The position numbers and the translations under genes are program-made. A DNA stretch of 22,023 nt from a virus. Location: UHGV virus genome UHGV-0871375. One strand, written 5' to 3'. The notes under the pieces were generated by a model. The model saw only the letters and a program-made list of their open reading frames with translations, did not search any database and was not told where the DNA came from. The number at the start of each line of letters is the position of its first letter. The stretch's first letter is position 1. Positions 1,201 to 15,986 of this stretch are shown here, piece after piece.

Positions 1201-1402
1201 GGAGTGGAACGCTCGCCAGCGACGCCCAAGAAGCCTTGAAACAGTTCGTCGATGGGTGCGCGAATGCAGGATATTCCCTCCTCCGGTTAAGGATGGAAGA
1301 GAGTATCTGTTCCACGAATCAGCGGTAAAGGTTGACTTAAATCGACCAGTAACAGGTAGCCTTTTGAAGAGGATCAGAAATGGGAAGAAGGCGAAGTCAT
1401 GA
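1184..1402 (+). CDS. xis: excisionase Xis (72 aa), lambda-type
   Basis: Translation MYLTLQEWNARQRRPRSLETVRRWVRECRIFPPPVKDGREYLFHESAVKVDL... is essentially lambda Xis from memory. The true start is the ATG at 1184, not the upstream ATG at 1145 used by the ORF track. The 3' end overlaps int as in lambda. Confidence 0.9.
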   Translation: MYLTLQEWNARQRRPRSLETVRRWVRECRIFPPPVKDGREYLFHESAVKVDLNRPVTGSLLKRIRNGKKAKS

Positions 1403-2453
1403 GCGCCGGGATTTACCCCCTAACCTTTATATAAGAAACAATGGATATTACTGCTACAGGGACCCAAGGACGGGTAAAGAGTTCGGATTAGGCAGAGACA
1501 GGAGGATAGCAATTACTGAAACAATACAGGCCAATATTGAGTTACTCTCAGACAGCGGACGCAAATCACTGATAGACAGAATTAAAGGCGGTGACGCAAT
1601 CACTCTTCATGTGTGGCTTGACCGATATGAAAGAATCCTCACCGAAAGGGGGATCAGGCCGAAAACTCTACTCGACTACGCCAGCAAAATCAGGGCAATC
1701 CGAAGAAAATTGCCGGACAAACCGCTCACTGACATATCAACGAAAGAAGTGGCAGCAATGCTAAACACCTACGTAGCAGAAGGTAAAGCAGCTTCCGCAA
1801 AATTAATCAGGTCAACCCTTGTTGACGTTTTTCGTGAAGCAATAGCCGAGGGGCATGTGGCAACGAATCCGGTAACAGCAACCCGTACAGCAAAGTCAGA
1901 AGTAAGGCGCTCAAGGCTGACAGCTAATGAGTATGTCGAGATTTACCATGCAGCCGAACCTCTCCCTATCTGGCTAAGGCTGGCGATGGATTTGGCCGTC
2001 GTTACAGGGCAGAGAGTCGGCGATTTGTGCAGAATGAAATGGTCAGACATAAACGACAACCATCTTCACATTGAACAGAGTAAAACAGGGGCTAAACTCG
2101 CCATTCCGCTAACGCTAACGATTGACGCGCTCAATATCTCATTGGCTGATACACTACAGAAATGCAGGGAGGCCAGCAGCAGTGAAACTATAATCGCATC
2201 AAAGCATCACGATCCGCTTTCCCCGAAAACAGTATCAAAGTATTTTACAAAGGCGAGAAATGCATCTGGACTCTCATTTGATGGAAACCCGCCAACATTC
2301 CATGAACTGCGTAGCCTGTCAGCGAGGCTATACCGGAACCAGATTGGCGATAAGTTTGCTCAACGTCTTCTCGGGCATAAATCAGATTCAATGGCGGCGC
2401 GGTATAGGGACAGCCGTGGACGGGAATGGGACAAAATTGAAATCGACAAATGA
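1380..2453 (+). CDS. int: tyrosine integrase, lambda Int family (357 aa)
   Basis: The first ~47 aa (arm-binding domain) match lambda Int as recalled. Catalytic residues are present in lambda-like context (VTGQRVGDL, EQSKTG, HELRSL, LLGHKS, ARYRD). Residues ~55-170 (core-binding domain) are clearly diverged from lambda. Confidence 0.95.
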   Translation: MGRRRSHERRDLPPNLYIRNNGYYCYRDPRTGKEFGLGRDRRIAITETIQANIELLSDSGRKSLIDRIKGGDAITLHVWLDRYERILTERGIRPKTLLDYASKIRAIRRKLPDKPLTDISTKEVAAMLNTYVAEGKAASAKLIRSTLVDVFREAIAEGHVATNPVTATRTAKSEVRRSRLTANEYVEIYHAAEPLPIWLRLAMDLAVVTGQRVGDLCRMKWSDINDNHLHIEQSKTGAKLAIPLTLTIDALNISLADTLQKCREASSSETIIASKHHDPLSPKTVSKYFTKARNASGLSFDGNPPTFHELRSLSARLYRNQIGDKFAQRLLGHKSDSMAARYRDSRGREWDKIEIDK

Positions 2454-2680
2454 TTTTATTTTGACTAATAATGACCTGCCCACATTAATTCATTGATAAT
2501 AAAAGAGATTTTAAATATACAACTTATTCACCTAAAGGGTGATAAAATCATACAAATCACCTAAAAATCATATAGTTGCATGCATTAGTGGTTAAATAAC
2601 AGACTACAAAATGCTACAAAACACAACATATCCAGTCACTATGAATCAACCACTTAGATGGTATTAGTGACCTGTAACAG
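2454..2680. other. attP-like attachment region with lambda-type arm sites; core not identified
   Basis: 2600-2680 is close to the reverse complement of the lambda attP P arm, including arm-type sites CAGTCACTAT (2631-2640) and TTAGTGACCT (2664-2673). A P'-arm-like site with one change (ATAATGACCT) lies at ~2472-2481. The lambda core GCTTTTTTATACTAA is absent; a CAACTTATT core-type-like motif sits at 2520-2528. Confidence 0.55.
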
Positions 2681-2684
2681 AGCA

Positions 2685-2726
2685 TTAGCGCAAGGTGATT
2701 TTTTGTCTTCTTGCGCTAATTTTTTG
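2685..2726 (+). terminator. sib/tI-like hairpin terminator downstream of int and attP
   Basis: ttagcgcaag ... cttgcgctaa inverted repeat followed by TTTTTT; matches my memory of the lambda sib/tI retroregulation element and lies in the same relative position. Confidence 0.6.
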
Positions 2727-3020
2727 TCAACACACTGGGTTGGCTTAATTTACAACCATGCTCAGTATCTCGATAAGCGCAGAGAAATGATGCAATGGTG
2801 GGCGGACTGGCTTGATGAAAAGGTGGAGTGATCCACCTTAACTATCGAATGACACAAATCCTTGCAATCCAGTGCAAAGCTTTGTGTACCTTAGTTTTGT
2901 CTCATAGGTAATTCTGCTTTAACTGCGATGCAGGAATCTGTCACCAGACGCACGTCTCGTTGTTTTATGGTTTTCCGTTCATGATTAATATGTTAGCTTG
3001 TCAAAGTTTGTGTTTAAGAT

Positions 3021-3691
3021 ATGGTGATTGATGCAATGTTAAGCGTTCAGATGACTCCACAAGCAAAAGTTAGCTTCGAGGAGCAATGTTTTTTTCATGC
3101 TTCAGGTCTTGTTGTTGCCCCAATAAATGTTGGAGCATTCTCCTACTTTGGCGCTAATTGTATGCTCGGCGGCTTTACGATGGGTAGATTTTGTTCAGTT
3201 GCTCCAGGAGTAAAAATTGGCCTTGGCGAGCATGAAACTGGGTATTTTTCTACGCATCCTTTTTCTTTGGCTCAAAAAATGGTTTTAAAATCCCTGATGG
3301 TATAGGAATGCAACGCGACCTCTCTCAACAGAAGCATGGTATACCAAGAATTGGTCATGACGTATGGATAGGTGCAAATGCGGTTATCAGGCGAGGTATA
3401 ACTATTGGTACTGGCGCTGTTATTGCTGCTGGCGCTATTGTCACCAAAAATGTCGAGCCATATTCAATCGTAGGTGGCGTTTCTGCAAAACACCTAGGGT
3501 ACAGATTTGAGGAATCAATCATCAAAGAGTTACTGGATAGCCAATGGTGGGAATATGATTTAAGCTCATTTATTGGGATTGATACAAGGACACCGACTAC
3601 TTTTTTAGAGCAGTTTAATGCTATAAAAGATAAAAAGAAGGCATCTTATAAGAGATTTACAATTCTTCCATCCGGTGAAATTGTTGAATAG
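3021..3691 (+). pseudogene. hexapeptide-repeat (left-handed beta-helix) acetyltransferase, XAT/CatB-Vat-like, split by a frameshift
   Basis: ORF 3021..3305 carries N-terminal motifs (SFEEQ..., GRFCSVAPG, STHPFSL) and ORF 3308..3691 in another frame carries the hexapeptide core ([13 protein letters not shown]...[12 protein letters not shown]...PYSIVGG) and a C-terminal WW motif (LLDSQWWEY). The two frames join into one ~215-aa protein (...HPFS[L/F][11 protein letters not shown]...) if one nucleotide is added in the T-rich stretch at ~3263-3269. Confidence 0.6.
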
Positions 3692-3712
3692 CGCATCCCT
3701 GCGCTATATTTT
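3690..3712. terminator. shared hairpin between the convergent acetyltransferase and tailspike genes
   Basis: agcgca-tccc-tgcgct perfect 6-bp stem at 3690-3705 lies in the 19-bp gap between the two stop codons, followed by ATATTTTA on the plus strand. Confidence 0.4.
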
Positions 3713-6077
3713 AAATAAACATAAGAATAAACATCAGAAGTTCCTCGTATCTGATACCATACTGATAACCAGCAGGTTTAATAATAACCTGCCTTCCTGT
3801 GTAATATTCCTCGTCGTACCACTCTCCTGTTTCATTGTTTTTAACACTCCTAATTAATACCTCTGGAGCATAAATATCATCCCATTCATCATAACACCAG
3901 AACGCATAGTTATTAGGGTCAAGACCGTATTTTCTGAGAATATTACCTACAGTTTGTGCACCAACACCGAAATGAATCCGAGCGCCATCACTCTTGATCT
4001 TTACTGCATCTTTAAATTTAAACCTCCAGATATTTTTCTTTATTTCAAGCGCAGCAAGACGCTCTGATTCTGTTGTTTTCTCGTCAGCCTCAATACGCAA
4101 TTTCAGCTCTTCATTCGACGTGTTGATACTGCCAGTACCAGCGTATACCTGTGACCATCGAAATGCTGATGTTCCGTTTGAGTTAACATTATCAACAGTT
4201 GGTTTTATAAGGCCAGAAAAATGAGTTTCAGGTGATGTATGAAGAAGATATCCGCCAGAATCGTTTTTTGTGCGTAATTCTATAGAGTCTACAATTATTC
4301 CACTGCGACGAATAATGATAGCGTTATTACCTTGTGCACCATTGTCTTTCTGAGTGGATAGTGTGTATCCGGTACGAGTATCTATCCTCCATCTTTTGGT
4401 ATCTTCTGATGCTTCCTGATTATAAAGATAAATAGAGTTATCAGTGTAATTATTTTTGCCATCAATATTTGTAAGTGTAAATGTGTTATTTACTTTGTCA
4501 TCATTGACCATTAAATTGGCAAGAGTGTAGAGAGGAGATGCAGTATACTGGCTGCAATTAAAACCACGTGCGTTTTGTATGTTAAGTAATGTTGTGACAT
4601 TAGCATTAATGCTAATATTGGAAAAGTTTGTCGCCTGATTTGCTCCATGTATTGATGATGTTACTCCTATCTGAGCTCCAATATCCAATGTACCAAAACT
4701 TACATTAATGAAGTTGTTTGCATCGCCACCATCTATAATTATTCCTTTTTTAGTCGTCGTATAACCTGATGCACTGCTAATCTCCAATCCATTAATGGTG
4801 CACACTCTTGGTCTGATGAGTCTAATTCCTACCCATTCATTTCCGTGGTCATATCCTCCTCCTGCTCTATGTATGGCTAGTCCATTAGCAATCAAAAGAA
4901 ATCTGTTATCAAGATTAATAGGGTGAAGCTGGCTATTAATGATAACGTTTGTCCATATAGACTCACCATACGCATAGCGATTTGATTCGAACACTCTATC
5001 CTGAGCATCATAAACACCGTTTAGGGATCTAGCAACATCGACATTGGTAAGATTGAAATATGTCTTCTGCTTAATTTCAAAAAAATTGGCAACGTTATGC
5101 GTTGTGATATCACTCACACGCATGGATAAAATACCTTCTTCTGGAGCGGTGCGAATGAATCCATCAAGGAACTGTTCATTATAACTTTTGGCTATCTGAT
5201 AACATCCAACAGCATCAATGCGTTCGATTGTGAACTGCCAACTATCACCACAGTTAAAAGACCATTCCCAACCGTACTTCTGTGCGAATTCATCAGAATC
5301 AATATTTGCAGTCTCAGAACAGAAAGATAAAAATCTAAATGTTGGTTTTGGCCTTAGATGATTAAGCCCGACACCTCTTGGGGTATATATGGCATTAGCG
5401 CCATTCCCGCCTTTGCTTTTAATTGTAAGGTGACTTAAACCAAATTCAACATCATGCTTAGTTGGTGCAGCGAAAACAAATCCATCTTTTGGTGATGTGG
5501 TATTATCAAACACAATAACCGTTTTACCCTGTCCATCGCCACACATATTCACTGGTGGTATATTAACTGGTCCAATTAAATTATATGTTCCAGTTGGAAT
5601 ATATAACTTTCCACCATCTCCAAGAGCATTTGCTGCTGCAATAAATGCCACCGTATCATCGTTAACACCGTCACCTTTCGCCCCATAATGCTGTGGCGTA
5701 ATTAACAGCATACGGTCAGAAAAAATCTCTTCCCTAAGTTGATCAGGATCGTATTTTAATACATTTGGAAAATAAAACTGCTGAGTGCCATATGCATCAT
5801 ATACAGCCATAGAATGGCCTTGCACAGTTACGAATTTGGCAATCTGCCCGTTATATACCGGATATCCAGCAGCGTTAATGATGATTGGTTGCGAAACAGG
5901 AACATGAGAGCCGTCTTCGTTCTCTACATAAACCTGAATCTGGTTTTCTGGACTTACCGGGTCAGTGTCAATTTTTCCGATATAAATTTTGCCGTTGGCT
6001 ACTGCTTTAAAAGAACGCGCCATAGTGAAAAGTTGCGAAGGCATACTCACTACAACATTGGCTGTAATGTCTGTCAT
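3711..6077 (-). CDS. tailspike protein (788 aa): P22-type head-binding N-domain, pectate-lyase-like beta-helix domain, C-terminal chaperone-like domain
   Basis: First ~110 aa ([41 protein letters not shown]...VTVQGHSMA) match the P22-family tailspike head-binding domain. [11 protein letters not shown] opens a right-handed beta-helix depolymerase-like region. The C-terminus ([11 protein letters not shown]...IWRFKFKD...[10 protein letters not shown]) resembles intramolecular chaperone (peptidase S74-type) domains. GGAG RBS is 9 nt upstream. Confidence 0.9.
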
Positions 6078-6241
6078 TTAATTTTCTCCAGACGTAGCAA
6101 TGCGGAACAAGATGCAACTTGCCCGGCATTGCATTAATGTAAGTTATGATTTGTTAACTATGAAATGAGTCTATGCAAAAAGATCTGTTGAATATTGCGT
6201 TCTATATATTTGGTTTTTGCACATTTCTGGTGTTTGCAAAG

Positions 6242-8239
6242 CTATTCTGACAACGAATCAGACTTCGCACCCTGCGTCAGGGCGTTAATTGCCTTTTGTG
6301 CCTGCTGCATGGTTTTCTCAAACTCTGTTGATCCGCGTGGGGTGTTTGCCATTCGGAGCATTGCATTTCTGAATGGCTCGCTCTCATAGGCGCGAGTAAG
6401 AAGTCCGTAGCTTACTGCTGCGCCAGTTGTCGCCGGGTTCATTGCCGTCCCATACCCAATAATGAACGGGATAGTTTGCTGCCCTGTGGGTGTTGTTACT
6501 GCCGCTTTTGCAGCCTGCTGCGTGGATTGTAGGTAGTTTTTTAATCCTTTCAGATAAGCAGCGTCCTGCCCCTTAAATGTGATGCCAGTCTGGTTTTGCA
6601 GGATGTTAAGCTGCCGAAGGAACTGGTCAGGGGATCCGCCAGATTTCTCCATCGCCTTTCCAATGATGCCATTGCGCATTTGCGCCCTGCCAACACGACC
6701 AACTGAGTTATACAGCGTCTTAATTTCCGATTTGTTCTTGCTGAATAGCATGTTGTTGACAACTTCCGGCGTCAGGTCTCCTTTCATGAGAACATTCTTC
6801 AGCCTGGTATTCTTTAGTTTCGCCGCTTCGTCAGCGTAGACGGCATTGGCCTGCTGATATTTACGGAGAGTATCGTTGCCAAGATTCTGACCAATGGCAC
6901 CATTGATATCGTCGGTCATCGCCTTGTAAACACGTTGAATGGCGGCATCGGAACGGTTTGGTAAGACTGGTCGCTCCCCCTTCACGTCCATTCTGAACTG
7001 GCTGCGCAGATCGCTTAATTGCTTCAAATCCAGATTAACCGGACCATCAGGGCCAGCATTGCGAACAAGCTCATCACGATATGACTGAAGTTTTGAAATT
7101 GTCTCGTTATCAGCTACCTTACCAAGCTTCTGCAGATTAGATATTTCTGTATCAATCTGCTGAATTGCTCGCGCAGGCTGAATGTTTACTCCAGCCATAG
7201 CATTCTGAACCTGCTCCAGTCGATTACCGGCGGCACGACGAATTCCTAATGTTTTCGCTTTAAGGCTGTCAATAACAACAGATGGATCATACTCACCGAA
7301 TTTATCAGCAAATCTCTGCACCAACTGGCTTCTCGCTTCCTGTTGCGTTGCTCTCATTCCGCTTGTGCCAGCCAGAGGGATATTTTCTGCTGTAGTCTGC
7401 GCCATTTTTCCGACGCGGGAAGTGGGTTGTAACAGGTCTGTGGTGTGCAGAGGAACGCCTTCACGCTCTGCAAATCTGATAGCTTGCTGTGCTTCTGGCG
7501 CAATAGCACCACGAACTCCACGATAAGCAGCACCTAATCCACGTCCGGCAGCGTTAATAGCACCGCCAGCCAGCACACCAACGCCTAAATCGGTGGCGAG
7601 TGCTTCCGCATCATCTTTCGCACTATTTGCAGCAAGTGATCCAACTGCGTTTTCTGCTAGAAGGCGAGTTGCCCCCTGAGCAATTCGACCAGCAAGTGTT
7701 GGTGCCTGTACCGCCGCTCTCTCAACTCCAGCAGGAGTGAGGTAAGGCAATGCTTCAGAAAATACCCTTCCCTCTGTCGTTTGTGGAGTCAGCGCACCTT
7801 GCTGAAGGCCAAAGTCCTGCTCTAATCCCTGCGTTGTTACTCGTGGTGCTGGTTGATATGTACCATCGCCAATACCGAGTTTACCGCCAGCCCAAGCCGC
7901 CGCGCTTGTTACAGCATCGGCAACTGATGCAGGTATGTTTGCCACGTTCACGCCAGCCTGCACCAGTCCACGACCAGTCTCTTTTACTGCTTCACCAAGA
8001 TCAGACATAAATCCACTTTGCTGTGGTTGTTGCTGTGCTACTGGTTGTTGTGTCTCCACTGGCTGCACAGATGGCAATGGATAGGCAGCATAGAAAGCTT
8101 GCTTAGCCTGCTCTGCATTTTCTCCGGCTTGCGGGGCCACGACTTCATTGAAGTATTGCTCCTGAGCCTGCGCTTTTTGTTCTGGTGCTAACGCCTGATA
8201 CTGTGGAGAGGCGATAACATCTTTCCATGCTTTAGCCAT
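6242..8239 (-). CDS. ejection/internal protein, P22 gp16-like (Sf6 gp13 position), 665 aa
   Basis: Gln/Ala-rich low-complexity N-region typical of ejection proteins; position immediately before the tailspike; start overlaps the upstream stop. Confidence 0.8.
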   Translation of the reverse strand: MAKAWKDVIASPQYQALAPEQKAQAQEQYFNEVVAPQAGENAEQAKQAFYAAYPLPSVQPVETQQPVAQQQPQQSGFMSDLGEAVKETGRGLVQAGVNVANIPASVADAVTSAAAWAGGKLGIGDGTYQPAPRVTTQGLEQDFGLQQGALTPQTTEGRVFSEALPYLTPAGVERAAVQAPTLAGRIAQGATRLLAENAVGSLAANSAKDDAEALATDLGVGVLAGGAINAAGRGLGAAYRGVRGAIAPEAQQAIRFAEREGVPLHTTDLLQPTSRVGKMAQTTAENIPLAGTSGMRATQQEARSQLVQRFADKFGEYDPSVVIDSLKAKTLGIRRAAGNRLEQVQNAMAGVNIQPARAIQQIDTEISNLQKLGKVADNETISKLQSYRDELVRNAGPDGPVNLDLKQLSDLRSQFRMDVKGERPVLPNRSDAAIQRVYKAMTDDINGAIGQNLGNDTLRKYQQANAVYADEAAKLKNTRLKNVLMKGDLTPEVVNNMLFSKNKSEIKTLYNSVGRVGRAQMRNGIIGKAMEKSGGSPDQFLRQLNILQNQTGITFKGQDAAYLKGLKNYLQSTQQAAKAAVTTPTGQQTIPFIIGYGTAMNPATTGAAVSYGLLTRAYESEPFRNAMLRMANTPRGSTEFEKTMQQAQKAINALTQGAKSDSLSE

Positions 8240-9540
8240 TAATCACCCCATAGTGAAGAAAAGTTACTGCCAGCAGGAGATTGTTGTCCTGGCGTATTCT
8301 GTACTGGCTCCTGATAATCAAACTGTTTTTTAACAGTGCTCAACTTGCTTTCAAGCTGATTTCTAATCTTTCCGATAGAGTCACGAAAAGCCTTTTCGCT
8401 CATTTTGGGGCTTAGGGCACCAACCGCATCGGATAATTTTTTACCCTCAGCATCTGAAAGAGCCCCCATACCCTTAAGGGACTGCACCATAGGAAGGAAA
8501 GTTTGAGCTTTAAAGGTGTCGAGCCTTGCTTCAAAGTTAGCCGCATCAGAGCCAGGAACTGTTGGAAACGCTGAGCGAATTCCTACTGCTTTTGAAAGGC
8601 CGGGGCTTTGCTCTATCTCGTTGAGAGAATCAAGCGCTGTGCTGAACGTATCAACTGCACCCTGAGCGGCGGCCTGCCTGTCAGCGCGGGCTATGTCAGC
8701 CTTTTGCCGAACATCTGCCTGTTTCTGTTTTAGCTCTTCAAGCTTTAACTGATTGCTTTCTCTGGCTATTTGTCTGTCCAGAGCCTTTTCTTGTAATTCT
8801 GCTCTTTGTATTTCGCGGGAAAGAGCAGCATTCTGTGCGCTGATGTTCTGTCCACGTATCTGGATGTCCTGCCCTCTCGCCTGAAGTGCTTCGCTGGCCT
8901 GATTGCTGCGGATTGTCTCTGCCAGTCTGCCTCGGTCAATCTCACGACCAGCTATCTTGTCCTGAACATTGAAGTAATCAATCGGACCAAGCGCAGCCAT
9001 TCCAAGGTGATCAACAAACTCACCAAACCCTGAAGGATTCTGCTGATACATCTGAGCAACGTTGTTAGGGTCAACACCGACGCGAGTCAGTTCCTTGGCG
9101 TTGTTTTGTAGCCATGATTGCATTGCTTCTGGAGACGATGCCGCAAGGCGAGCGCCAGCCGCCAAGGTGCCGATAGAGTTGCGCTGGTCTTCGTCTGCCC
9201 ACTTCATGCCAGACTGAATCTTCTCTAATTGACCAGGATATTTGGTCATCAAATCTCGCACCTGCTGTCGATCACCTGACTGGATGGCTGCCGCATATTC
9301 TTTTTGGAATGCAGCATCCGCTTCCTGTTGCTTTGCGGCTTGATATGTTTGAGCGACACTACCAAGTCCCTGCAACGCCTGAAGGCCGATGTTATTGCGA
9401 CCTGAACGCTCCATTTCGTTGTTCTGGCGAATATAGGCCAACGCCTCACTTACATCACTTGCCTTTGGCGCATTTGAGTTTTGCCCACCGATACCAGCAA
9501 GAAAACCGCCTGAGTTGATTCCTTGTTGCCAAGTAGCCAT
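8239..9540 (-). CDS. ejection protein, P22 gp20-like, 433 aa
   Basis: Size and position in the gp7-gp20-gp16 block; Gly/Ala/Gln-rich composition; coupled stop/start with the next gene. Confidence 0.8.
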   Translation of the reverse strand: MATWQQGINSGGFLAGIGGQNSNAPKASDVSEALAYIRQNNEMERSGRNNIGLQALQGLGSVAQTYQAAKQQEADAAFQKEYAAAIQSGDRQQVRDLMTKYPGQLEKIQSGMKWADEDQRNSIGTLAAGARLAASSPEAMQSWLQNNAKELTRVGVDPNNVAQMYQQNPSGFGEFVDHLGMAALGPIDYFNVQDKIAGREIDRGRLAETIRSNQASEALQARGQDIQIRGQNISAQNAALSREIQRAELQEKALDRQIARESNQLKLEELKQKQADVRQKADIARADRQAAAQGAVDTFSTALDSLNEIEQSPGLSKAVGIRSAFPTVPGSDAANFEARLDTFKAQTFLPMVQSLKGMGALSDAEGKKLSDAVGALSPKMSEKAFRDSIGKIRNQLESKLSTVKKQFDYQEPVQNTPGQQSPAGSNFSSLWGD

Positions 9541-9549
9541 ATTCCCACC

Positions 9550-10224
9550 TTAAAACAATGATCCAAGACCACCGATAATGCCGCCACCAATTGCGCCAAC
9601 AGCCGTACCTATTCCTGGCACCACAGAGCCAATCATCGCCCCTGATGCCGCACCGCTCATGGCACCTCCCAAGGCTGATTGCAGTCCTGATGGTCGGTTA
9701 GCATTAGCCGCAGATGCTGCCGCCTGCTGTTGATACAATTGGCTGACGTTGTTAGCGTAGTTCTGTCCGGCGTTTGCCTGACCTGTAAGAGCACCAAGGC
9801 CGATATTTGCCAGATTGTTGTAGTTGTTCATCTGACCTGACAGCCAGTTTTGACCGAGTGTAGGTGCGATTGCTGCTAACTGGTTTCCTGTTGCTGTAGA
9901 GCCTAATCCACCCGTTGCCTCTGCTGCTGCCAGACTCTGGTAACGCGCCTGCCCTGCAAGGTCTTTATACTGCTGGGAGTTGTAATACTGGTTAAGCGCC
10001 TGACCTTGCCCCTGAAGAGAGGAAAGATTCTGCAACTCTGATACATACTGCTGAGCGAGTGGAGTGAACGGTGCAAGGTTTTGCATGTTCGTCTGCCACA
10101 TTTCACGCTGCAATTCGATACCCTTTTCAGTTGCGCGTGCCTGGGCTTTTGAACCGCCATCACTGCCACCTTTGCAGTAAACAGCTTTGCTGAGGTGCTT
10201 ATTGGCAATCTGGAGAATTAACAT
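9550..10224 (-). CDS. ejection protein, P22 gp7-like, 224 aa
   Basis: Size and position; glycine-rich hydrophobic C-terminus (GAMSGAASGAMIGSVVPGIGTAVGAIGGGIIGG). ATG at 10224 overlaps the upstream gene by 26 nt. Confidence 0.75.
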   Translation of the reverse strand: MLILQIANKHLSKAVYCKGGSDGGSKAQARATEKGIELQREMWQTNMQNLAPFTPLAQQYVSELQNLSSLQGQGQALNQYYNSQQYKDLAGQARYQSLAAAEATGGLGSTATGNQLAAIAPTLGQNWLSGQMNNYNNLANIGLGALTGQANAGQNYANNVSQLYQQQAAASAANANRPSGLQSALGGAMSGAASGAMIGSVVPGIGTAVGAIGGGIIGGLGSLF

Positions 10225-10681
10225 TCTTTAGCTCCTCGTATTTTGAGCGCGGTAACTGATAAATCGTGATGCCTACAGGCTTTCCATTGCTGGTATAAGC
10301 ATCATCAAGGTGACCAACACGGGTAGCGCCAAGCAAACGGATAATTGACCGTCCGTATTTCGTGGTGTCAGGAACCATGGTAATGCTGTTAAGGAATGGT
10401 GAGTTTTCGAGAAGCCATTTGCAGAATAATCGATGCCCTTGCAGTGCATATTCGCCACGGAATCCTGGGTCGTACACCGCATGACATTCAACAACGCTAT
10501 GCCAGAAGTTACGCACTTCATGAACGCCAGCCAGCACTAATCCTTCGTAGATGCCGAGATATACCGCATCAGGCTTGATGTAGTATTTATCTCCACTGTC
10601 TACGATATTTCCCGTGTTTGCCGGGTTGTTGAGGAATTCTGCAAGCTTCACCGGATTATCGATGAGCTTTATTTCCATCAC
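10199..10681 (-). CDS. P22 gp14-like protein, 160 aa
   Basis: Conserved position between tail needle and gp7-like gene; 4-nt ATGA overlap with the needle stop. Confidence 0.7.
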
Positions 10682-11631
10682 TGCTCCGCAATGATTTTGA
10701 TGGTTGTGGCAGTAAACGACGCACCATTAGACTGAATGGTTAACGTACTGCCATTTGTGGCAAGAAAGCCGTCTTTATCCACGCTGAAGAACGTAGCTAA
10801 CAGGATGTTATCGGTTGTTGTCGCCGAGTTGCGACTGCTTACCAGTGTGTCAGGAACAGAGCCGGAAAAGGTTAGCTGCATTGATCTGTTTGCGGTTCCG
10901 CTGGGCCACGTCCCGACGATCGACAGCTTGAAGAACAAGGTTTTGTTCTCGTTGAACACAACCATCTTGTTGTTAACGGTGTCGAAGAATGGTGCCAACG
11001 TTCCGGATGACGGCGTGAGCGTTTTCAGCAAGCTAACAAGGTTAGTCGGCGCTGTCGGGATGGTTACAGATACTCCTGAGTAAACAACCTCTGATTTCTT
11101 GCGCGTGGTGGCATACTCAAGCGCAGATATTCTTGTTGAGTGATCACCAACTGTGCTTTGTAGCGTCGAAATACTTCCTTCTGCCGCTGTGAGCCTGGTA
11201 TCAAGTGCGTCGATATCGGTTTTATTCTGAGTTATGCGCGCATCATGGTTTGCTAACTCAGATTCATTGGCAGCAATTCGTGTCTCGTGATCAGCCAGCT
11301 CTGTTTCAGCAGCCGTAATCCTTGTTTCATGATCTGCAAGAGTGCTTTCCGCTGCTGCAATTCTATGTTCATGATTGATGAGAGTTGCTTCAGCAGCTTC
11401 AATTCTGGATTCATGGTCTGCAAGGGTGACATCCTGCTCATCATTCTTCACCTGTGCATCATAAGCCCCCTTCCCTGCTTCGTTGGCCTTGTTAGCCACG
11501 TTACCAACATCAGCGCCCTGTGCGATAACGTACAGCAGATATGACTGCGAGAAGATATCGCGCGGAAGGACTGATGTGTCGAGCCGCGTAGCCTGGATGA
11601 TTACCGGCTCATTGAGATTCGAATCAGCCAT
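10678..11631 (-). CDS. tail needle (P22 gp26-like) with extended C-terminal knob, 317 aa
   Basis: N-terminus [39 protein letters not shown] matches the P22 gp26 N-terminus; the central part is a heptad coiled coil; the longer C-terminal domain is like the Sf6-type needle knob. Confidence 0.9.
11212..11424 (-). repeat. five tandem 42-bp (14-aa) coding repeats inside the tail needle gene
   Basis: Protein repeats [14 protein letters not shown] / [14 protein letters not shown] / [14 protein letters not shown] / [14 protein letters not shown] / [14 protein letters not shown]; the DNA periodicity shows up as repetitive antisense ORFs in the track. Confidence 0.8.
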
Positions 11632-13049
11632 TACTCAATCCTTATCTGGCAACCAGACAGAGTGACAGGTGACTTCGTGATAACGCGCAATTTGAAGCCG
11701 ACATTTTTCCTGATGCGCCCTACTCGCTTCCACAAAACACGTTTGTCGTAAACGAACGGTTCATTCTGCTCAATCATCTGCTCACGCCCGTAATTGATGC
11801 CGTCAGTGGTTGCAGAGAGAAAAAGGCGGTCAGCATACTGCGCAACGCCAGTTGACGACTCAACCTCAAGGTCGAAAACTCTGGCGTTATCCGCTTTGAA
11901 CAACGGAGTAAACAGCAGGTGTTCCTGTTGCTTGTCGTACTGGCTGCTGATATCGAACTGCAATCTCCCTGTCATCGATTCAAGCTTATCGCCGCACGTA
12001 ATTTGGTTGCCTTCGTAAATGAAGTCGATAGCGCGGTACACATCGTCATACAGGCCTGTTTTCAGTACACACCATTGCGGACCATTGGCGCTTGAAGATG
12101 CGTCGTACACGAGGACGTGGCGCGGCAGGTGAATAATCAGCAACTCATGAGCATCAAACCGCAACGATTCCATCACGCCATCAGCCAGTTCATCAGCAGT
12201 GTAGGAGCGGAGGATTTTCTCAATGCTCGCGCTGGCTATTGGTGATACCTGACCGGAGCCGATGATATACACAGACGGCGCACCTGTTGCCGGATTGCTG
12301 ATGAACGCATACGAATCGGCGAACGGCGTTTTGCAGTAAGTCCCGGCAATACCTTTCTGCACCATCAGCGATGGCTGTGCGACATACAAAGCAGCACCAA
12401 CTGTGGTTGCACCAGTCAGGGAGAAATATTCAATCGTCGATGAACCAAAGCAGACGATGAAGTCTCGCCATGTTCCGATACCGATGATGCCGTCCGGCTG
12501 AGACTCGGCACGATATTGTGCGCTGTAACGGTCAGGATGAGATTCGTCTTCAGGGTCAGTGATGAACCATGAATCCGTGCCGTCTTTTGACCACGCATAA
12601 CGCCCACGTAAGCGAGTAATGTCACGAACCGAACCTAACTCGTACTGTGTGAATCCGCTGTCTGTAGGCCAGTTTGAGACGGTTTTAACCGTGCCATCAT
12701 AGCGATACTCAACCAGTTGACCATTAACGCCTACCGCCTGTGATGTCCGGCCATGCGCCATTGATACACGACCACTTCCGGCGACATCACCAACCTCGCT
12801 TTCTCCTTTGTACAGTTTGCCACCACACACGCGATAAACAGCACTCTGCGCCATGTTGTACTCGACGCCGCGCGATACACCGTTCACATCAGAGCGTTTG
12901 GCAATGCCCGGGAATGAGCGAAGATATCCGCTGCTGTTCAGGATTTCTTTGGGTGTAGCCAACATATTCACTGGCAGATAGTCGATATAGTCGGCGTTTC
13001 GAAAGTCTTTGCCGACACCTTTCATAAGCGGAAGTTGCTGAATCGGCAT
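11631..13049 (-). CDS. tail hub / head-completion protein, P22 gp10-like, 472 aa
   Basis: Same length as P22 gp10 and recognisably the same protein along its length ([16 protein letters not shown]...[17 protein letters not shown]). Confidence 0.95.
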
Positions 13050-13058
13050 TTATTCACC

Positions 13059-13520
13059 TCACGTACTCGGATCATCTTTCTCGATGTAAAACCGATTCCA
13101 CGTAAACGCGCTTTTGTTACCACTACCGCGAGGCATGTCATTTCGCCGCTCAAGTGGTGGTATTTTGGTTAAAGCGATACAGATTGTTTGATATGCACTG
13201 TCAGCAGCGGTAAGGAGAGCGTCTGACGGCTGAATGACGTTATCCATGCACACTTGCACAGCGAGTTTCAAAGCGACGCCATCATTTGCCCATGCAGGGA
13301 TACCTGAATCATCGTCAGGTAACGGCATGATGCCGTTTTCTGTATCAGCAAACTGATACCCAAGCTCGATACCTTTCGCCAGCCATGCTGCCATCATGTC
13401 TTCGAGGTCATTAATGGCATCTTCAATTGCCTGAGGGTCAGCATCTGTCAACGTGGCATTGGAATACAGCCCGGCTTTTCGTAAAGCCTTTAGAACGAGA
13501 TCACCCTTCGTTTTCGCCAT
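13059..13520 (-). CDS. portal-closure / tail accessory protein, P22 gp4-like, 153 aa
   Basis: Size and position between coat and gp10-like genes. Confidence 0.8.
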   Translation of the reverse strand: MAKTKGDLVLKALRKAGLYSNATLTDADPQAIEDAINDLEDMMAAWLAKGIELGYQFADTENGIMPLPDDDSGIPAWANDGVALKLAVQVCMDNVIQPSDALLTAADSAYQTICIALTKIPPLERRNDMPRGSGNKSAFTWNRFYIEKDDPST

Positions 13521-13689
13521 CTTCTTCCGCCTTAGCCACTTTTTGCTTCGTTGCGGTTTCTTCAGGAGTTTTTACCCAACCTTTTTTCAGGTGAGATTTA
13601 ACTTCTTCGTCATCAACAATGATGTAATCGACAGCAAACTGACCACAGGTGATCATGTTGCCAGGCTTATAGAGCATTGTTCGTGCCAT
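13501..13689 (-). CDS. small hypothetical protein (62 aa) between coat and gp4-like genes (Sf6 gene 6 position)
   Basis: ATG at 13689 preceded by GGGAGAAG RBS; the ORF track's start at 13728 is further upstream. Acidic C-terminus; 20-nt overlap with the gp4-like gene. Confidence 0.5.
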   Translation of the reverse strand: MARTMLYKPGNMITCGQFAVDYIIVDDEEVKSHLKKGWVKTPEETATKQKVAKAEEDGENEG

Positions 13690-13730
13690 TGTCTTCTCCC
13701 AATAAAAATGGGGCCGAAGCCCCACCAAAA

Positions 13731-14984
13731 TTACTGCCCGGCAATAACGATGCCCGTATATTCAGGAACAAGTACAGAGCAACCGTACAGAGTGGTGAAA
13801 CGAGCAGTGGTTACGCCTTTGATGTGGTCGAAGGCGTAAGACATGATCAGCGTAGCGCCCTGCTCGGTGGTTGCTGTCATTACCTGTGGACCCTGACCAG
13901 TCGGGAACGCCAGTTTGCCGTACATCAGCTCAACAGAACCATCAGCCCAGAACAGGTTAGCCGGTGCAGCATTCTTGTTGAGAATGGTGATTGCTGCGCT
14001 ATTTGCCGCGTTAGCATCAACGTTTGCATATGGTCGGCTGGCGACATCCGCGTTGTCAGGCGGCAGAATTTTCGGGGAGATAGTTACTGTCGTTCCGCTT
14101 ACTGCCAGAACGCGGAATACCTGCGGCTGCCAGGTGGTATCTTTGGTGATCTGGTGTACAGAATTCACCCCTGCAATGGTAAACGCATCACCAACCTGCA
14201 AACCTTCAGCAGATACCGTAATGGTCCCCTGTCGGTTATCAACTGGCATATCGTTAGCATCTTTCGCTTCAACTTTGTGCGCAGGTGCTGCTGCCAGCGT
14301 AATGGAAGTTGCTGTCCCTTTCGGAACACGACCAGAAATATCGGTCTTGTAGCTATCAAAGGAAGCAACCGGAGGGATCTGCGCTTTTTCGTATGCTGTC
14401 AGGGTTGCGCCCTGAGCGTAGGCACGATGACCAAGCTCGCCAGCAAGGTCTTTGTAGTTGAAGGGGTTCCAGAAAGAGCGACGGTTGATACCCTGCGGTA
14501 CACCAATCGCCGTCATGGTGGCATCAATACCTGCCGCACAGTTCCACAAATCACGGCCCTGTGAACCAGTGGTTGAGTCAGACATTGTGATCACGTTAGT
14601 AGCACGCTGCGTAACCATGGAAATCAGGTCAGAGTCAATCTGTGCAGCAAGGCGCATACCTGCGGAGCGACCAGCTTCAGTTTTATGCTCAGGGTCACGC
14701 ATTTCACGCGCATCCAGAGTGTACAGAATGTTTTTCGGCTCCTTGAATACAGAAGGAACAAGGCGCTGAACCAGTGCTGTAGGTGTTTTTCCGCTGAGGT
14801 CGAGGCCTTCCTCAATGTTCATGTGGTAATGCTGCGGACGATACAGAACATCACCTGCTCGCTGCATTGCTGTATCACCGGGACGGAATTTTTTAGCGTT
14901 ACGGGAAACTACGCAGGCGGCCTCAAAGCCTTCAACGTAGTTTTCGAACATGATTTCAAGGTCTTTTGCTAATTGGTTAGCCAT
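13731..14984 (-). CDS. major coat protein, P22/Sf6-type, 417 aa
   Basis: Position after scaffold; C-terminal region (ANVDANAANSAAITILNKNAAPANLFWADGSVEL) matches the P22 coat family as recalled. Confidence 0.9.
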   Translation of the reverse strand: MANQLAKDLEIMFENYVEGFEAACVVSRNAKKFRPGDTAMQRAGDVLYRPQHYHMNIEEGLDLSGKTPTALVQRLVPSVFKEPKNILYTLDAREMRDPEHKTEAGRSAGMRLAAQIDSDLISMVTQRATNVITMSDSTTGSQGRDLWNCAAGIDATMTAIGVPQGINRRSFWNPFNYKDLAGELGHRAYAQGATLTAYEKAQIPPVASFDSYKTDISGRVPKGTATSITLAAAPAHKVEAKDANDMPVDNRQGTITVSAEGLQVGDAFTIAGVNSVHQITKDTTWQPQVFRVLAVSGTTVTISPKILPPDNADVASRPYANVDANAANSAAITILNKNAAPANLFWADGSVELMYGKLAFPTGQGPQVMTATTEQGATLIMSYAFDHIKGVTTARFTTLYGCSVLVPEYTGIVIAGQ

Positions 14985-15002
14985 GCTTAATGCTCCGATA
15001 GG

Positions 15003-15896
15003 TTATTTTTTTGCCTTTTTAGCGGCGAAATACGGCGTCCAGTCACCAGTTTCCAGCGCCTTGGCTTTCAGTTTGTCGAGGTTATTGATTACTGCGCCGT
15101 TGCTCCCCTTAACTGTCGGGGTTGTGGCTGCCGTGGTTTTTGCTTTTGGCATGATTCTGGCCTTCGATTCGATACGTTCCAGCAGACGACCGATTGCTAC
15201 GGGGTTGGTAGCTTCTGCCAGTTGCTTGCGCAGTTCAGCGTTGCGACCGAGCGCCAGAACAACGATTTCCGGCTTCTCTGACTCAAACAGGATCGCGTTT
15301 TGTGTCTCGATGGGGATTTCCTCGAGTACGGCCTGTTCTGCTTCCTGATAGCCAGGAACCTTGAGAGCCTTAACACGTTGCTGATATTTGGATAATCGCT
15401 CTTGATAGGCAGCCTGAAGCTCCTGCTCCTTCTGCTTGCGAGCCATCTCCTGTTGCTGGTACTTGCCGTTATCCTCTGCCCACTTAGCCATGCGTTGCTG
15501 ATAGATTTCTTCATCGAAACCGATGTCCTCATCATCCAGTTTTGGCATTCGCGGTGGTTGAGTGATTACCGGCTGCTGCTCGACGGGTTTCTGAGACTGA
15601 CGCATCAGCTCTTTCAGCTCACGGTCTTTCTCTTTAATCGTCTTGCGCAAGTGTTTTACCAGTCCATGCTCTGCGCCATCTTCGCTGGTTGGCGAATCCA
15701 GCTTTTCGTCACCAAAGTAGAATTCCTGTTCTGATTCGTCGTCATCAGTGTCAGTAGCTTCCTCTGCATCATTTCCTGAGGACTCACTGCCATCTGCTGT
15801 TTCGACTTCTTCAGCCAGTTCGACATCATCAGGAATCTGCTCTGACGCGTCGGTTTCGATTTCAACTTCTGGTGTGTTTTCTGCCATCTGGTCCAT
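15003..15896 (-). CDS. scaffolding protein, 297 aa
   Basis: Strongly acidic N-terminus, charged coiled-coil composition (KEKDRELKELMRQ..., QQQEMARKQKEQELQAAYQERL), position between portal and coat. Confidence 0.85.
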   Translation of the reverse strand: MDQMAENTPEVEIETDASEQIPDDVELAEEVETADGSESSGNDAEEATDTDDDESEQEFYFGDEKLDSPTSEDGAEHGLVKHLRKTIKEKDRELKELMRQSQKPVEQQPVITQPPRMPKLDDEDIGFDEEIYQQRMAKWAEDNGKYQQQEMARKQKEQELQAAYQERLSKYQQRVKALKVPGYQEAEQAVLEEIPIETQNAILFESEKPEIVVLALGRNAELRKQLAEATNPVAIGRLLERIESKARIMPKAKTTAATTPTVKGSNGAVINNLDKLKAKALETGDWTPYFAAKKAKK

Positions 15897-15986
15897 TTGT
15901 TACCCCTGTTTACTCGATGTTCAGCCCATCGGAAGGCAATAGGGTGCCAGGCCTCATAAAGACAGCCATTGCACGTTATGGGTTAA

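What the first reader, a model, noticed from the sequence alone, without database searches (positions are those of the whole stretch)
3021..3691. Frameshifted XAT-like hexapeptide acetyltransferase at the tailspike/attP conversion locus
The slot between the tailspike and attP/int is where P22-like phages carry O-antigen modification genes (gtrABC in P22, oac in Sf6). Here it holds a soluble hexapeptide-repeat acetyltransferase with a CatB/Vat-like WW C-terminus, an unusual gene for this slot. It is split into two frames in a T-rich stretch (~3263-3269); restoring one nucleotide gives a full-length ~215-aa enzyme. This could be recent pseudogenisation, a homopolymer sequencing error, or slippage-based on/off switching.
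Basis: partly seen in the sequence, partly recalled or inferred. Interest (0 to 1): 0.6.

Follow-up and report, generated by a model that had tools for sequence, protein, structure and literature searches.

The report
Frameshifted phage acetyltransferase beside the tailspike
A P22-like E. coli phage carries, next to its tailspike gene, a soluble acetyltransferase gene that probably decorates a host surface sugar polymer, and in this copy a one-base loss in a run of six T's has broken it; this is a common, recurrent kind of gene loss, not a dedicated genetic switch.

Summary
Window 3036-3691 (+) encodes a soluble CatB/Vat-like (XAT-class) hexapeptide acetyltransferase. It lies convergent to the tailspike (3711-6077, -) and beside attP/int. 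It is split by a 1-nt deletion: T5 at 3260-3264, where every intact allele has T6. Intact 218/223-aa alleles occur on at least 191 public contigs and in 10 of 5426 complete E. coli genomes.

A public contig (CYGL01000194.1) is identical to the window over 13,464 nt except for this one T. The same T5 lesion occurs in three other assemblies, on two haplotypes marked by SNPs on both sides. It is therefore a recurrent hotspot mutation and probably real, although a homopolymer sequencing error in this record cannot be excluded.

Other alleles carry unrelated lesions (a single-C deletion, a single-A deletion, an 11-nt deletion, T4 to T5). None of the 15 alleles sampled without regard to tract length is OFF, whereas 65.6% of phase-variable neuO alleles are OFF. 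The gene has no tandem repeat array. This points to ordinary recurrent pseudogenisation, not programmed phase variation.

The closest homologs sit in kps capsule loci, an O-antigen cluster and another prophage's tail-fibre end. Scores fall far below the CatB and Vat cut-offs. The likely role is acetylation of a surface polysaccharide (lysogenic conversion); the acceptor is unknown.

The parts
3036..3691 (+). XAT-class (CatB/Vat-related) hexapeptide O-acetyltransferase gene, frameshifted. The start follows RefSeq annotation of intact alleles; an upstream in-frame ATG at 3021 gives 223 aa.
3021..3305 (+). N-terminal ORF of 94 aa. Native residues run up to ...STHPF, followed by 13 out-of-frame residues. 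It contains the catalytic His codon (H66, 3231-3233).
   Evidence: This exact 94-aa product is also encoded on 3 other public contigs.
3260..3264 (+). T5 homopolymer, the site of the -1 deletion. It is T6 in all intact alleles.
3308..3691 (+). C-terminal ORF of 127 aa: the left-handed beta-helix coils that carry the hexapeptide repeats, plus the WW-containing C-terminal helices.
3089..3095 (+). T7 tract, a second polymorphic homopolymer. T6 alleles use the ATG at 3086 and give a 201-aa N-truncated protein.
3688..3707 (.). GC-rich hairpin followed by a T-rich tail, between the convergent stop codons of the acetyltransferase and tailspike genes. Probably a shared terminator.
   Evidence: Sf6 has an annotated terminator in the same position between its tailspike and oac genes.
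3711..6077 (-). Tailspike of 788 aa: P22-type head-binding domain, pectate-lyase-like beta-helix and a C-terminal S74-type chaperone domain. It is always found next to the acetyltransferase.
2844..3020 (+). Conserved upstream region. Homology shared by prophages with different integrases begins at about 2844. It presumably holds the gene's own promoter, which has not been mapped.
   Evidence: A weak promoter-like match lies at 2998-3025.
1380..2453 (+). Lambda/HK022-type tyrosine integrase. The attP core starts near 2520, and xis lies at 1145-1402.

Best explanation
The gene encodes a soluble, cytoplasmic, acetyl-CoA-dependent acetyltransferase with a left-handed beta-helix fold of the XAT (CatB/Vat-like) class. 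It travels as a low-GC module together with the tailspike of P22-like E. coli phages. Its most likely role is lysogenic conversion: in the lysogen it would O-acetylate a surface polysaccharide (capsule or O antigen) while that polymer is still on the cytoplasmic side. This would alter the receptor or antigen, as NeuO of CUS-3 does for the K1 capsule. In this genome the gene is inactive. One T has been lost from a T6 run 11 codons after the catalytic His. That loss cuts the conserved loop [13 protein letters not shown] and separates the catalytic loop from the acetyl-CoA-binding coils. The lesion is a very recent, real mutation at a replication-slippage hotspot. It is one of several independent ways this accessory gene is lost in nature, and not a programmed on/off switch. 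Shown here: the lesion, the fold class, the linkage to the tailspike, recurrence of the lesion, and the genomic contexts of homologs. Inferred: the substrate, the conversion role, and that the lesion is not a sequencing error.
For: Lesion: the window has T5 where all intact alleles have T6, and the allele is otherwise identical to WP_241374840.1.

Recency: CYGL01000194.1 equals window 2808-16271 except for this one T.

Real and recurrent: the exact 94-aa product is encoded on 3 further contigs from other samples and other prophage contexts. T5 sits on two haplotypes that differ at SNPs upstream (2846, 2850-2852, 2859) and downstream (3591, 3598, 3623) of the tract.

Not a switch: 10 of 10 complete genomes and 5 of 5 IMG/VR and metagenome contigs have T6. 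Full-length forms are on at least 191 contigs, against 3 for the T5 product. Other alleles carry unrelated lesions (single-C deletion, single-A deletion, 11-nt deletion, T4 to T5). Tandem Repeats Finder reports no repeat array in the gene. By contrast, 65.6% of neuO alleles in complete genomes are OFF (PMC13001214).

Function: the protein shows hexapeptide and XAT matches, H66 is invariant in 50 homologs, and there is no membrane-spanning segment. The closest homologs lie in kps-type capsule loci (52-59% identity), in the O127/O90 O-antigen cluster between wzx and wzy (38% identity), and at the tail-fibre end of a P2-like prophage. A CatB-related O-acetyltransferase is also reported in an ST131 capsule locus (bioRxiv 10.64898/2025.12.15.689991).

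Module: the gene is always next to the tailspike, whichever integrase or attachment site is used. GC is 40.7% for the gene and 38.6% for the tailspike, against 50.5% for the virion genes. The slot is the same as for Sf6 oac and CUS-3 neuO.
Against: No reads are available, and the lesion is in a homopolymer. The gene holds 8 of the 44 runs of 5 or more identical bases in the 13.4 kb that is otherwise identical to CYGL01000194.1, so a single random homopolymer error would land in it about 18% of the time. The acceptor is unidentified. The same gene sits in hosts with O25, O16, O17-group, O21 and O154 O-antigen clusters and is paired with two tailspike types, which does not fit one O-unit acceptor. 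No biochemical data exist for any close homolog. Recurrence at one tract is also what a low-rate reversible switch would produce.
Confidence: 0.6

Rival explanations
1. The T5 is a homopolymer sequencing or assembly error in this record, and the phage actually carries the intact T6 gene.
For: It is the only difference from CYGL01000194.1 in 13,464 nt. It lies in a homopolymer. The AT-rich gene holds 18-23% of the homopolymer runs of that stretch. All 15 alleles sampled without regard to tract length have T6.
Against: The same T5 allele is present in three other independently assembled samples, on two haplotypes. No other gene in the window is frameshifted; all virion ORFs are intact. A surviving real mutation is expected to fall in the one dispensable gene.
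Confidence: 0.18
2. The T6 tract, and perhaps the T7 tract at 3089-3095, works as a low-frequency reversible slipped-strand switch that turns receptor acetylation on and off. This would be a functional analogue of neuO phase variation.
For: There were at least two independent T6-to-T5 events at one tract. The window and L020 differ only at this tract. A second homopolymer in the same gene is polymorphic. There is precedent in the same slot of a P22-like prophage: neuO.
Against: The tract is only 6 nt long and there is no repeat array. OFF alleles are rare: 0 of 15 in unbiased samples and about 1.5% of contigs, against 65.6% for neuO. Only T5 and T6 are seen, with no range of tract lengths. Many inactivations are not at homopolymers, which is the pattern expected from decay.
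Confidence: 0.12
3. The enzyme is an antibiotic-modifying xenobiotic acetyltransferase (chloramphenicol or streptogramin A resistance) carried as phage cargo, and has nothing to do with surface polysaccharides.
For: The best solved-structure matches, by sequence and by fold, are CatB and Vat enzymes. The catalytic His and the WW motif are conserved. Some databases name members 'chloramphenicol acetyltransferase' or 'antibiotic acetyltransferase'.
Against: It scores 97.5 bits against the CatB cut-off of 350 and 99.7 bits against the Vat cut-off of 300, with only 30-40% identity to these enzymes. The closest homologs lie in capsule and O-antigen loci and beside phage tail-fibre genes, not in resistance contexts. 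No plasmid record carries it. It is strictly linked to the tailspike.
Confidence: 0.04
4. The frameshift is partly bypassed. A -1 slip of tRNA-Phe on the run CCT TTT T would recreate exactly the wild-type ...HPFFFG... protein, giving low-level expression from the T5 allele.
For: Re-reading one T after codon 3261-3263 restores the complete 218-aa sequence. The T run allows perfect re-pairing.
Against: There is no canonical X XXY YYZ slippery heptamer, and no stimulatory structure was identified or sought. T5 alleles are rare and not conserved as a lineage, so nothing suggests selection for recoding.
Confidence: 0.03

Closest known systems
NeuO, the K1 polysialic-acid O-acetyltransferase of the P22-like prophage CUS-3
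   Same: It is a soluble hexapeptide-repeat acetyltransferase encoded between int and the tailspike of a P22-like E. coli prophage. It modifies the polysaccharide that the phage's own tailspike recognises, and it is found in both ON and OFF states through slippage.
   Different: It shares only the generic beta-helix coils (34% identity over 79 aa; PDB 3jqy E 7.9e-5). NeuO switches through 3-53 copies of a heptanucleotide repeat, with about two thirds of alleles OFF. This gene has no repeat array and is rarely OFF. NeuO runs in the same direction as the tailspike, whereas this gene is convergent with it.
Oac of Shigella phage Sf6 (O-antigen acetylase)
   Same: The architecture is identical: the conversion gene is convergent with the tailspike, a terminator lies between the two, and int is alongside.
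   Different: Sf6 gene 15 is annotated as a lipopolysaccharide O-antigen acetylase. From prior knowledge, not tested here, it is an integral-membrane acyltransferase-3 protein acting on the periplasmic side. The protein here is soluble and has a left-handed beta-helix fold.
XAT-class antibiotic acetyltransferases (CatB, Vat(A-H), PaXAT)
   Same: They share the fold, the catalytic His on the extended loop, and the WW region.
   Different: Scores are far below the curated family cut-offs, and TM-scores are only about 0.55 with divergent N- and C-termini. The genomic context is polysaccharide or phage receptor-binding genes, not resistance.
'CatB-related O-acetyltransferases' in E. coli kps capsule loci and in the O127/O90 O-antigen cluster
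   Same: They belong to the same protein family over the full length (52% and 38% identity). The [13 protein letters not shown] motif hit by the frameshift is conserved in the capsule-locus homolog.
   Different: Those are chromosomal biosynthesis-cluster genes and are themselves uncharacterised biochemically. This one is phage-borne and linked to a tailspike.

Membership tests
XAT-class hexapeptide acetyltransferases (CatB/Vat/PaXAT) | Left-handed beta-helix fold with hexapeptide repeats | tested here: met
   PF00132 E 8.8e-12. AlphaFold2 model with pLDDT 94.7. The top 27 Foldseek PDB hits are all CatB-type or Vat enzymes.
XAT-class hexapeptide acetyltransferases (CatB/Vat/PaXAT) | Catalytic His on the extended loop that precedes the conserved S-T-x-P-F motif | tested here: met
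   H66 is invariant in 50 homologs and aligns with the loop His of CatB 6pu9. That this His is the catalytic residue comes from prior knowledge of XAT enzymes.
XAT-class hexapeptide acetyltransferases (CatB/Vat/PaXAT) | Score above the curated equivalog cut-off for CatB (350 bits) or Vat (300 bits) | tested here: not met
   97.5 and 99.7 bits. The protein is related to these families but is not a member of either resistance family.
XAT-class hexapeptide acetyltransferases (CatB/Vat/PaXAT) | Acetylates chloramphenicol or streptogramin A | not testable with these tools
   Needs MIC or enzyme assays with the repaired gene.
Prophage lysogenic-conversion acetyltransferases (Sf6 Oac, CUS-3 NeuO) | Encoded in the tailspike-att/int slot of a P22-like phage | tested here: met
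   The reference architectures are shown.
Prophage lysogenic-conversion acetyltransferases (Sf6 Oac, CUS-3 NeuO) | Orthology to Oac (membrane acyltransferase-3 family) or to NeuO | tested here: not met
   The maximum 19-residue Kyte-Doolittle hydropathy is 1.43, so there is no membrane-spanning segment. Similarity to NeuO is limited to 79 aa of coil. The membrane nature of Oac is prior knowledge, not tested here.
Prophage lysogenic-conversion acetyltransferases (Sf6 Oac, CUS-3 NeuO) | Acetylates the host surface polysaccharide and changes phage adsorption or serotype | not testable with these tools
   Inferred only from position and from the contexts of homologs.
Phase-variable contingency locus (slipped-strand switch) | Long homopolymer or multi-copy tandem repeat within the coding or promoter region | tested here: not met
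   T6 and T7 are the longest runs. Tandem Repeats Finder reports no array in the gene.
Phase-variable contingency locus (slipped-strand switch) | A high fraction of OFF alleles and a spread of tract lengths among isolates | tested here: not met
   0 of 10 complete genomes and 0 of 5 viral or metagenome contigs are OFF at this tract. The T5 product is on 3 contigs against at least 191 for full-length forms. For neuO, 65.6% of alleles are OFF.
Phase-variable contingency locus (slipped-strand switch) | Recurrent independent length changes at the same tract | tested here: met
   T5 occurs on two haplotypes with flanking markers on both sides.

The most novel reading that the evidence does not exclude
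A previously uncharacterised XAT-type soluble acetyltransferase is a tailspike-linked receptor-modifying module of P22-like and P2-like coliphages. Its short T6/T7 runs would act as a low-rate reversible switch, letting lysogen populations toggle acetylation of a capsule or another shared glycan. That would be a second, mechanistically different NeuO-like system, possibly acting on a non-O-antigen receptor common to O16, O25, O17-group and O21 hosts.
Probability: 0.12. Interest if true: 0.55.

Novelty: new member of a known kind. Interest (0 to 1): 0.3.

Why it matters
If the enzyme acetylates the phage's own receptor, it would add an XAT-type soluble enzyme to the list of phage serotype- or capsule-conversion genes in E. 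coli, including lineages carrying O25 and O16 O-antigen clusters. That matters for phage-therapy host range, for vaccine antigens and for serotyping. It would also warn against reading 'CatB-related' annotations as antibiotic resistance. The frameshift itself is an ordinary loss-of-function allele. Its main practical value is as a marker: this phage genome probably cannot convert its host, and the T6 run is a site to re-check in any assembly.

Tried and rejected
1. I looked for the gene in phage records. No INPHARED phage carries it at the DNA level, and protein-level hits are only distant Vat-like genes of Gram-positive phages. No plasmid carries it.

2. I scanned the GTDB representative genomes for a conserved 31-mer and found nothing. 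I scanned IMG/VR for the T5 allele and found nothing.

3. I tested whether lysogens share the capsule type of the closest chromosomal homolog. That capsule polymerase gene is present in only 1 of 5426 genomes, and that genome is not one of the lysogens, so the idea was rejected.

4. I tested whether lysogens share one O-antigen type. They do not: O25, O16, O17-group, O21 and O154 were found. The simple model of one O-unit acceptor is therefore not supported.

6. A literature search for phage PSK1, whose tailspike is the closest in the phage collection (54% identity), found nothing. Searches for phage-borne XAT or hexapeptide conversion genes also found nothing.

7. The promoter scan gave no more hits than shuffled controls, so no promoter is claimed.

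8. A split but active enzyme made from the two ORFs was rejected. The 15 conserved residues [15 protein letters not shown] would be missing from both products.

Full report
**What is in the sequence**

On the + strand, ORF 3021-3305 (94 aa) is followed, in another frame, by ORF 3308-3691 (127 aa). I aligned this stretch with prophage alleles from complete E. coli genomes. The window differs from the allele of strains 2018-10-1CC and AVS0578 at a single position: a run of five T's (3260-3264) where the others have six. Restoring the T gives the 218-aa RefSeq protein WP_241374840.1, annotated 'CatB-related O-acetyltransferase', starting at ATG 3036. Other gene callers start at ATG 3021 and give 223 aa.

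**Surroundings**

The window is a P22-like (Lederbergvirus-type) phage in the vegetative, circular gene order.
- The left end holds xis (1145-1402) and a lambda/HK022-type int (1380-2453).
- In five lysogens integrated beside torT, host DNA joins the phage at window 2520, so the attP core starts about there.
- The acetyltransferase gene follows. A hairpin (3688-3707) lies between its stop codon and the convergent stop codon of the tailspike.
- The tailspike (3711-6077, -) has a P22 head-binding domain, a pectate-lyase-like beta-helix and an S74-type C-terminal chaperone domain.
- Beyond it lies an uninterrupted series of large minus-strand ORFs of P22-like virion-module sizes, matching Sf6-type virion genes in related phages.
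- Sf6 has the same architecture: tailspike, terminator, convergent oac, then int. CUS-3 carries neuO between int and its endosialidase tailspike.

**What the protein is**

- It matches the Pfam hexapeptide repeat (E 8.8e-12).
- By sequence, the best solved relatives are type B chloramphenicol acetyltransferases and Vat streptogramin acetyltransferases (E 3e-26 to 7e-20).
- An AlphaFold2 model built from 48 homologs is confident (pLDDT 94.7, pTM 0.90). Its top 27 Foldseek PDB hits are all CatB-type or Vat enzymes, with TM-scores of about 0.5-0.57.
- H66 is invariant in 50 homologs and aligns with the loop His of CatB. W171 and W172 are conserved.
- No segment is hydrophobic enough to span a membrane.
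- The protein is not a CatB or Vat family member by the curated thresholds: 97.5 bits against a cut-off of 350, and 99.7 against 300.

**Where its relatives live**

- A 52%-identical, full-length homolog sits in a kps-type capsule locus of an O15:H12 strain.
- Homologs of 59% and 53% identity sit in similar capsule loci, alongside KpsM/T-like ABC transporter genes, a protein of about 1171 aa, and KpsC/S-, KpsD- and KpsE-like genes.
- A 38%-identical homolog lies between wzx and wzy in the O127/O90 O-antigen cluster.
- A 62%-identical homolog lies at the end of a P2-like prophage, next to its tail-fibre and tail-fibre-assembly genes.
- A recent preprint also notes a CatB-related O-acetyltransferase in an ST131 capsule locus.
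- These contexts point to acetylation of a surface polysaccharide, not to antibiotic resistance.

**A tailspike-linked module**

In all ten complete genomes that carry the gene, and in the other loci fetched that extend past its 3' end, the gene abuts the tailspike gene (IS1-disrupted in 2018-10-1CC). The integrase and the attachment site vary: torT, ybhB/bio, dacD, and beside a P4-like integrase. Shared homology starts at about window 2844. GC is 40.7% for the gene and 38.6% for the tailspike, against 50.5% for the virion genes.

Two tailspike types, 73% identical in the receptor-binding part, are paired with the same acetyltransferase. Host O-antigen clusters are:
- O25 and O16 for the window's tailspike type;
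- O17/O44/O73/O77/O106 and O21 for the other type;
- O154 for a degraded prophage.

No single O-unit acceptor explains this, so the acceptor remains open. A capsule or another shared glycan is possible.

**Is the frameshift real, and is it a switch?**

Evidence that it is recent:
- Contig CYGL01000194.1 is identical to window 2808-16271 (13,464 nt) apart from the extra T. The lesion is therefore either extremely recent or an error.

Evidence on a sequencing error:
- The exact 94-aa product is encoded on three other contigs from unrelated samples and different prophage contexts.
- In two of those contigs the T5 lies on a haplotype that differs from the window's at SNPs both upstream and downstream of the tract. 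That haplotype matches an intact T6 allele from strain LSC52.
- The same deletion has therefore arisen at least twice, so the tract is a hotspot.
- An error still cannot be excluded. The AT-rich gene holds 8 of the 44 runs of 5 or more identical bases in the 13.4 kb.

Evidence against a dedicated switch:
- All 10 complete genomes and all 5 IMG/VR and metagenome contigs have T6.
- Full-length proteins are on at least 191 contigs, and the T5 product on 3.
- Other broken alleles carry unrelated lesions: a single-C deletion next to the tract, T4 to T5 at 3283-3286, a single-A deletion outside any run (4 contigs), an 11-nt deletion, and T5 combined with A5.
- There is no repeat array.
- For neuO, a true contingency gene in the same slot, repeat numbers range from 3 to 53 and 65.6% of alleles in complete genomes are OFF (PMC13001214).

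The pattern fits recurrent loss of a dispensable accessory gene, with a slippage-prone run as the commonest point of failure.

**Consequence of the lesion**

The break falls 11 codons after H66, inside the conserved motif [13 protein letters not shown]. The first product keeps the catalytic loop but lacks the coils that carry the hexapeptide repeats. The second product starts at native M92. Residues 77-91 are missing from both, so a split enzyme is unlikely to work. A -1 ribosomal slip on the T run would recreate the native sequence, but nothing suggests that this has been selected.

**Verdict**

The finding is a well-documented but ordinary pseudogene allele of an uncharacterised prophage-borne acetyltransferase. 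The gene family in this slot is mildly interesting: it is an XAT-type analogue of NeuO, its substrate is unknown, and it is absent from catalogued phages. The frameshift itself is not novel biology.

Noticed in passing
window 3086-3095: A second polymorphic homopolymer. T7 here becomes T6 in strains GF4 and A10, and the resulting protein variant is seen on 15 contigs. The deletion breaks the frame from ATG 3036 but brings ATG 3086 into frame, just downstream of a GAGGAG Shine-Dalgarno-like sequence. RefSeq annotates the result as an intact 201-aa protein lacking 17 N-terminal residues. Whether it is active is unknown.
   Followed up: partly
window 3711-5740, compared with L002, L004, L006, L008, L009, L021 and L024: Two tailspike types, 73% identical in the receptor-binding part, are each paired with the nearly identical acetyltransferase. 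Recombinants exist: L011 has the window's tailspike type but the other acetyltransferase haplotype.
   Followed up: partly
L026, L028, L029, L031 and L033 (host rfb loci): Hosts carrying the module have O25, O16, O17/O44/O73/O77/O106, O21 and O154 O-antigen clusters. An almost identical type B tailspike (99.4%) occurs in an O21 host and in an O17-group host. This is odd if the tailspike is O-antigen-specific.
   Followed up: partly
L017 518-1171 and L018 3171-3824: A 62%-identical homolog of the acetyltransferase sits at the end of a P2-like myovirus prophage, next to its tail-fibre and tail-fibre-assembly genes and beside the host suf genes. The family has been captured beside receptor-binding genes in two unrelated phage types.
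   Followed up: no
proteins P0138, P0139 and P0140 (corresponding to window about 3355-3380): Three 'partial' products from different assemblies end within six codons of each other at ...IGHDVWI(GAN). Contig breaks at one spot suggest an IS insertion or a repeat at that position in some alleles.
   Followed up: no
window 2658-2831: A 57-aa ORF whose 3' part RefSeq annotates in lysogens as a pseudogene remnant ('incomplete, missing N-terminus'). It has no Pfam match. It lies in the stretch downstream of attP that is shared at about 88% identity with many lambdoid prophages, including phages Gally and 434.
   Followed up: partly
window 6077-6242: The window goes straight from the tailspike to the gp16-like ejection-protein gene. 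Several relatives carry an immI-like region here (Arc/Mnt-type repressors and an antirepressor), which this phage lacks.
   Followed up: no
window 3714-3739: A 12-nt tandem duplication (AATAAACATAAG, 2.2 copies) lies at the 3' end of the tailspike ORF and gives the repeated C-terminal peptide ...LMFILMFI.
   Followed up: no
L001 5194-6856 and L030 9790-12156: Strain 2018-10-1CC keeps an intact acetyltransferase next to a tailspike truncated by IS1, in a degraded prophage at torT. It also carries a second P22-like prophage at dacD with a 788-aa tailspike but no annotated acetyltransferase beside it.
   Followed up: no
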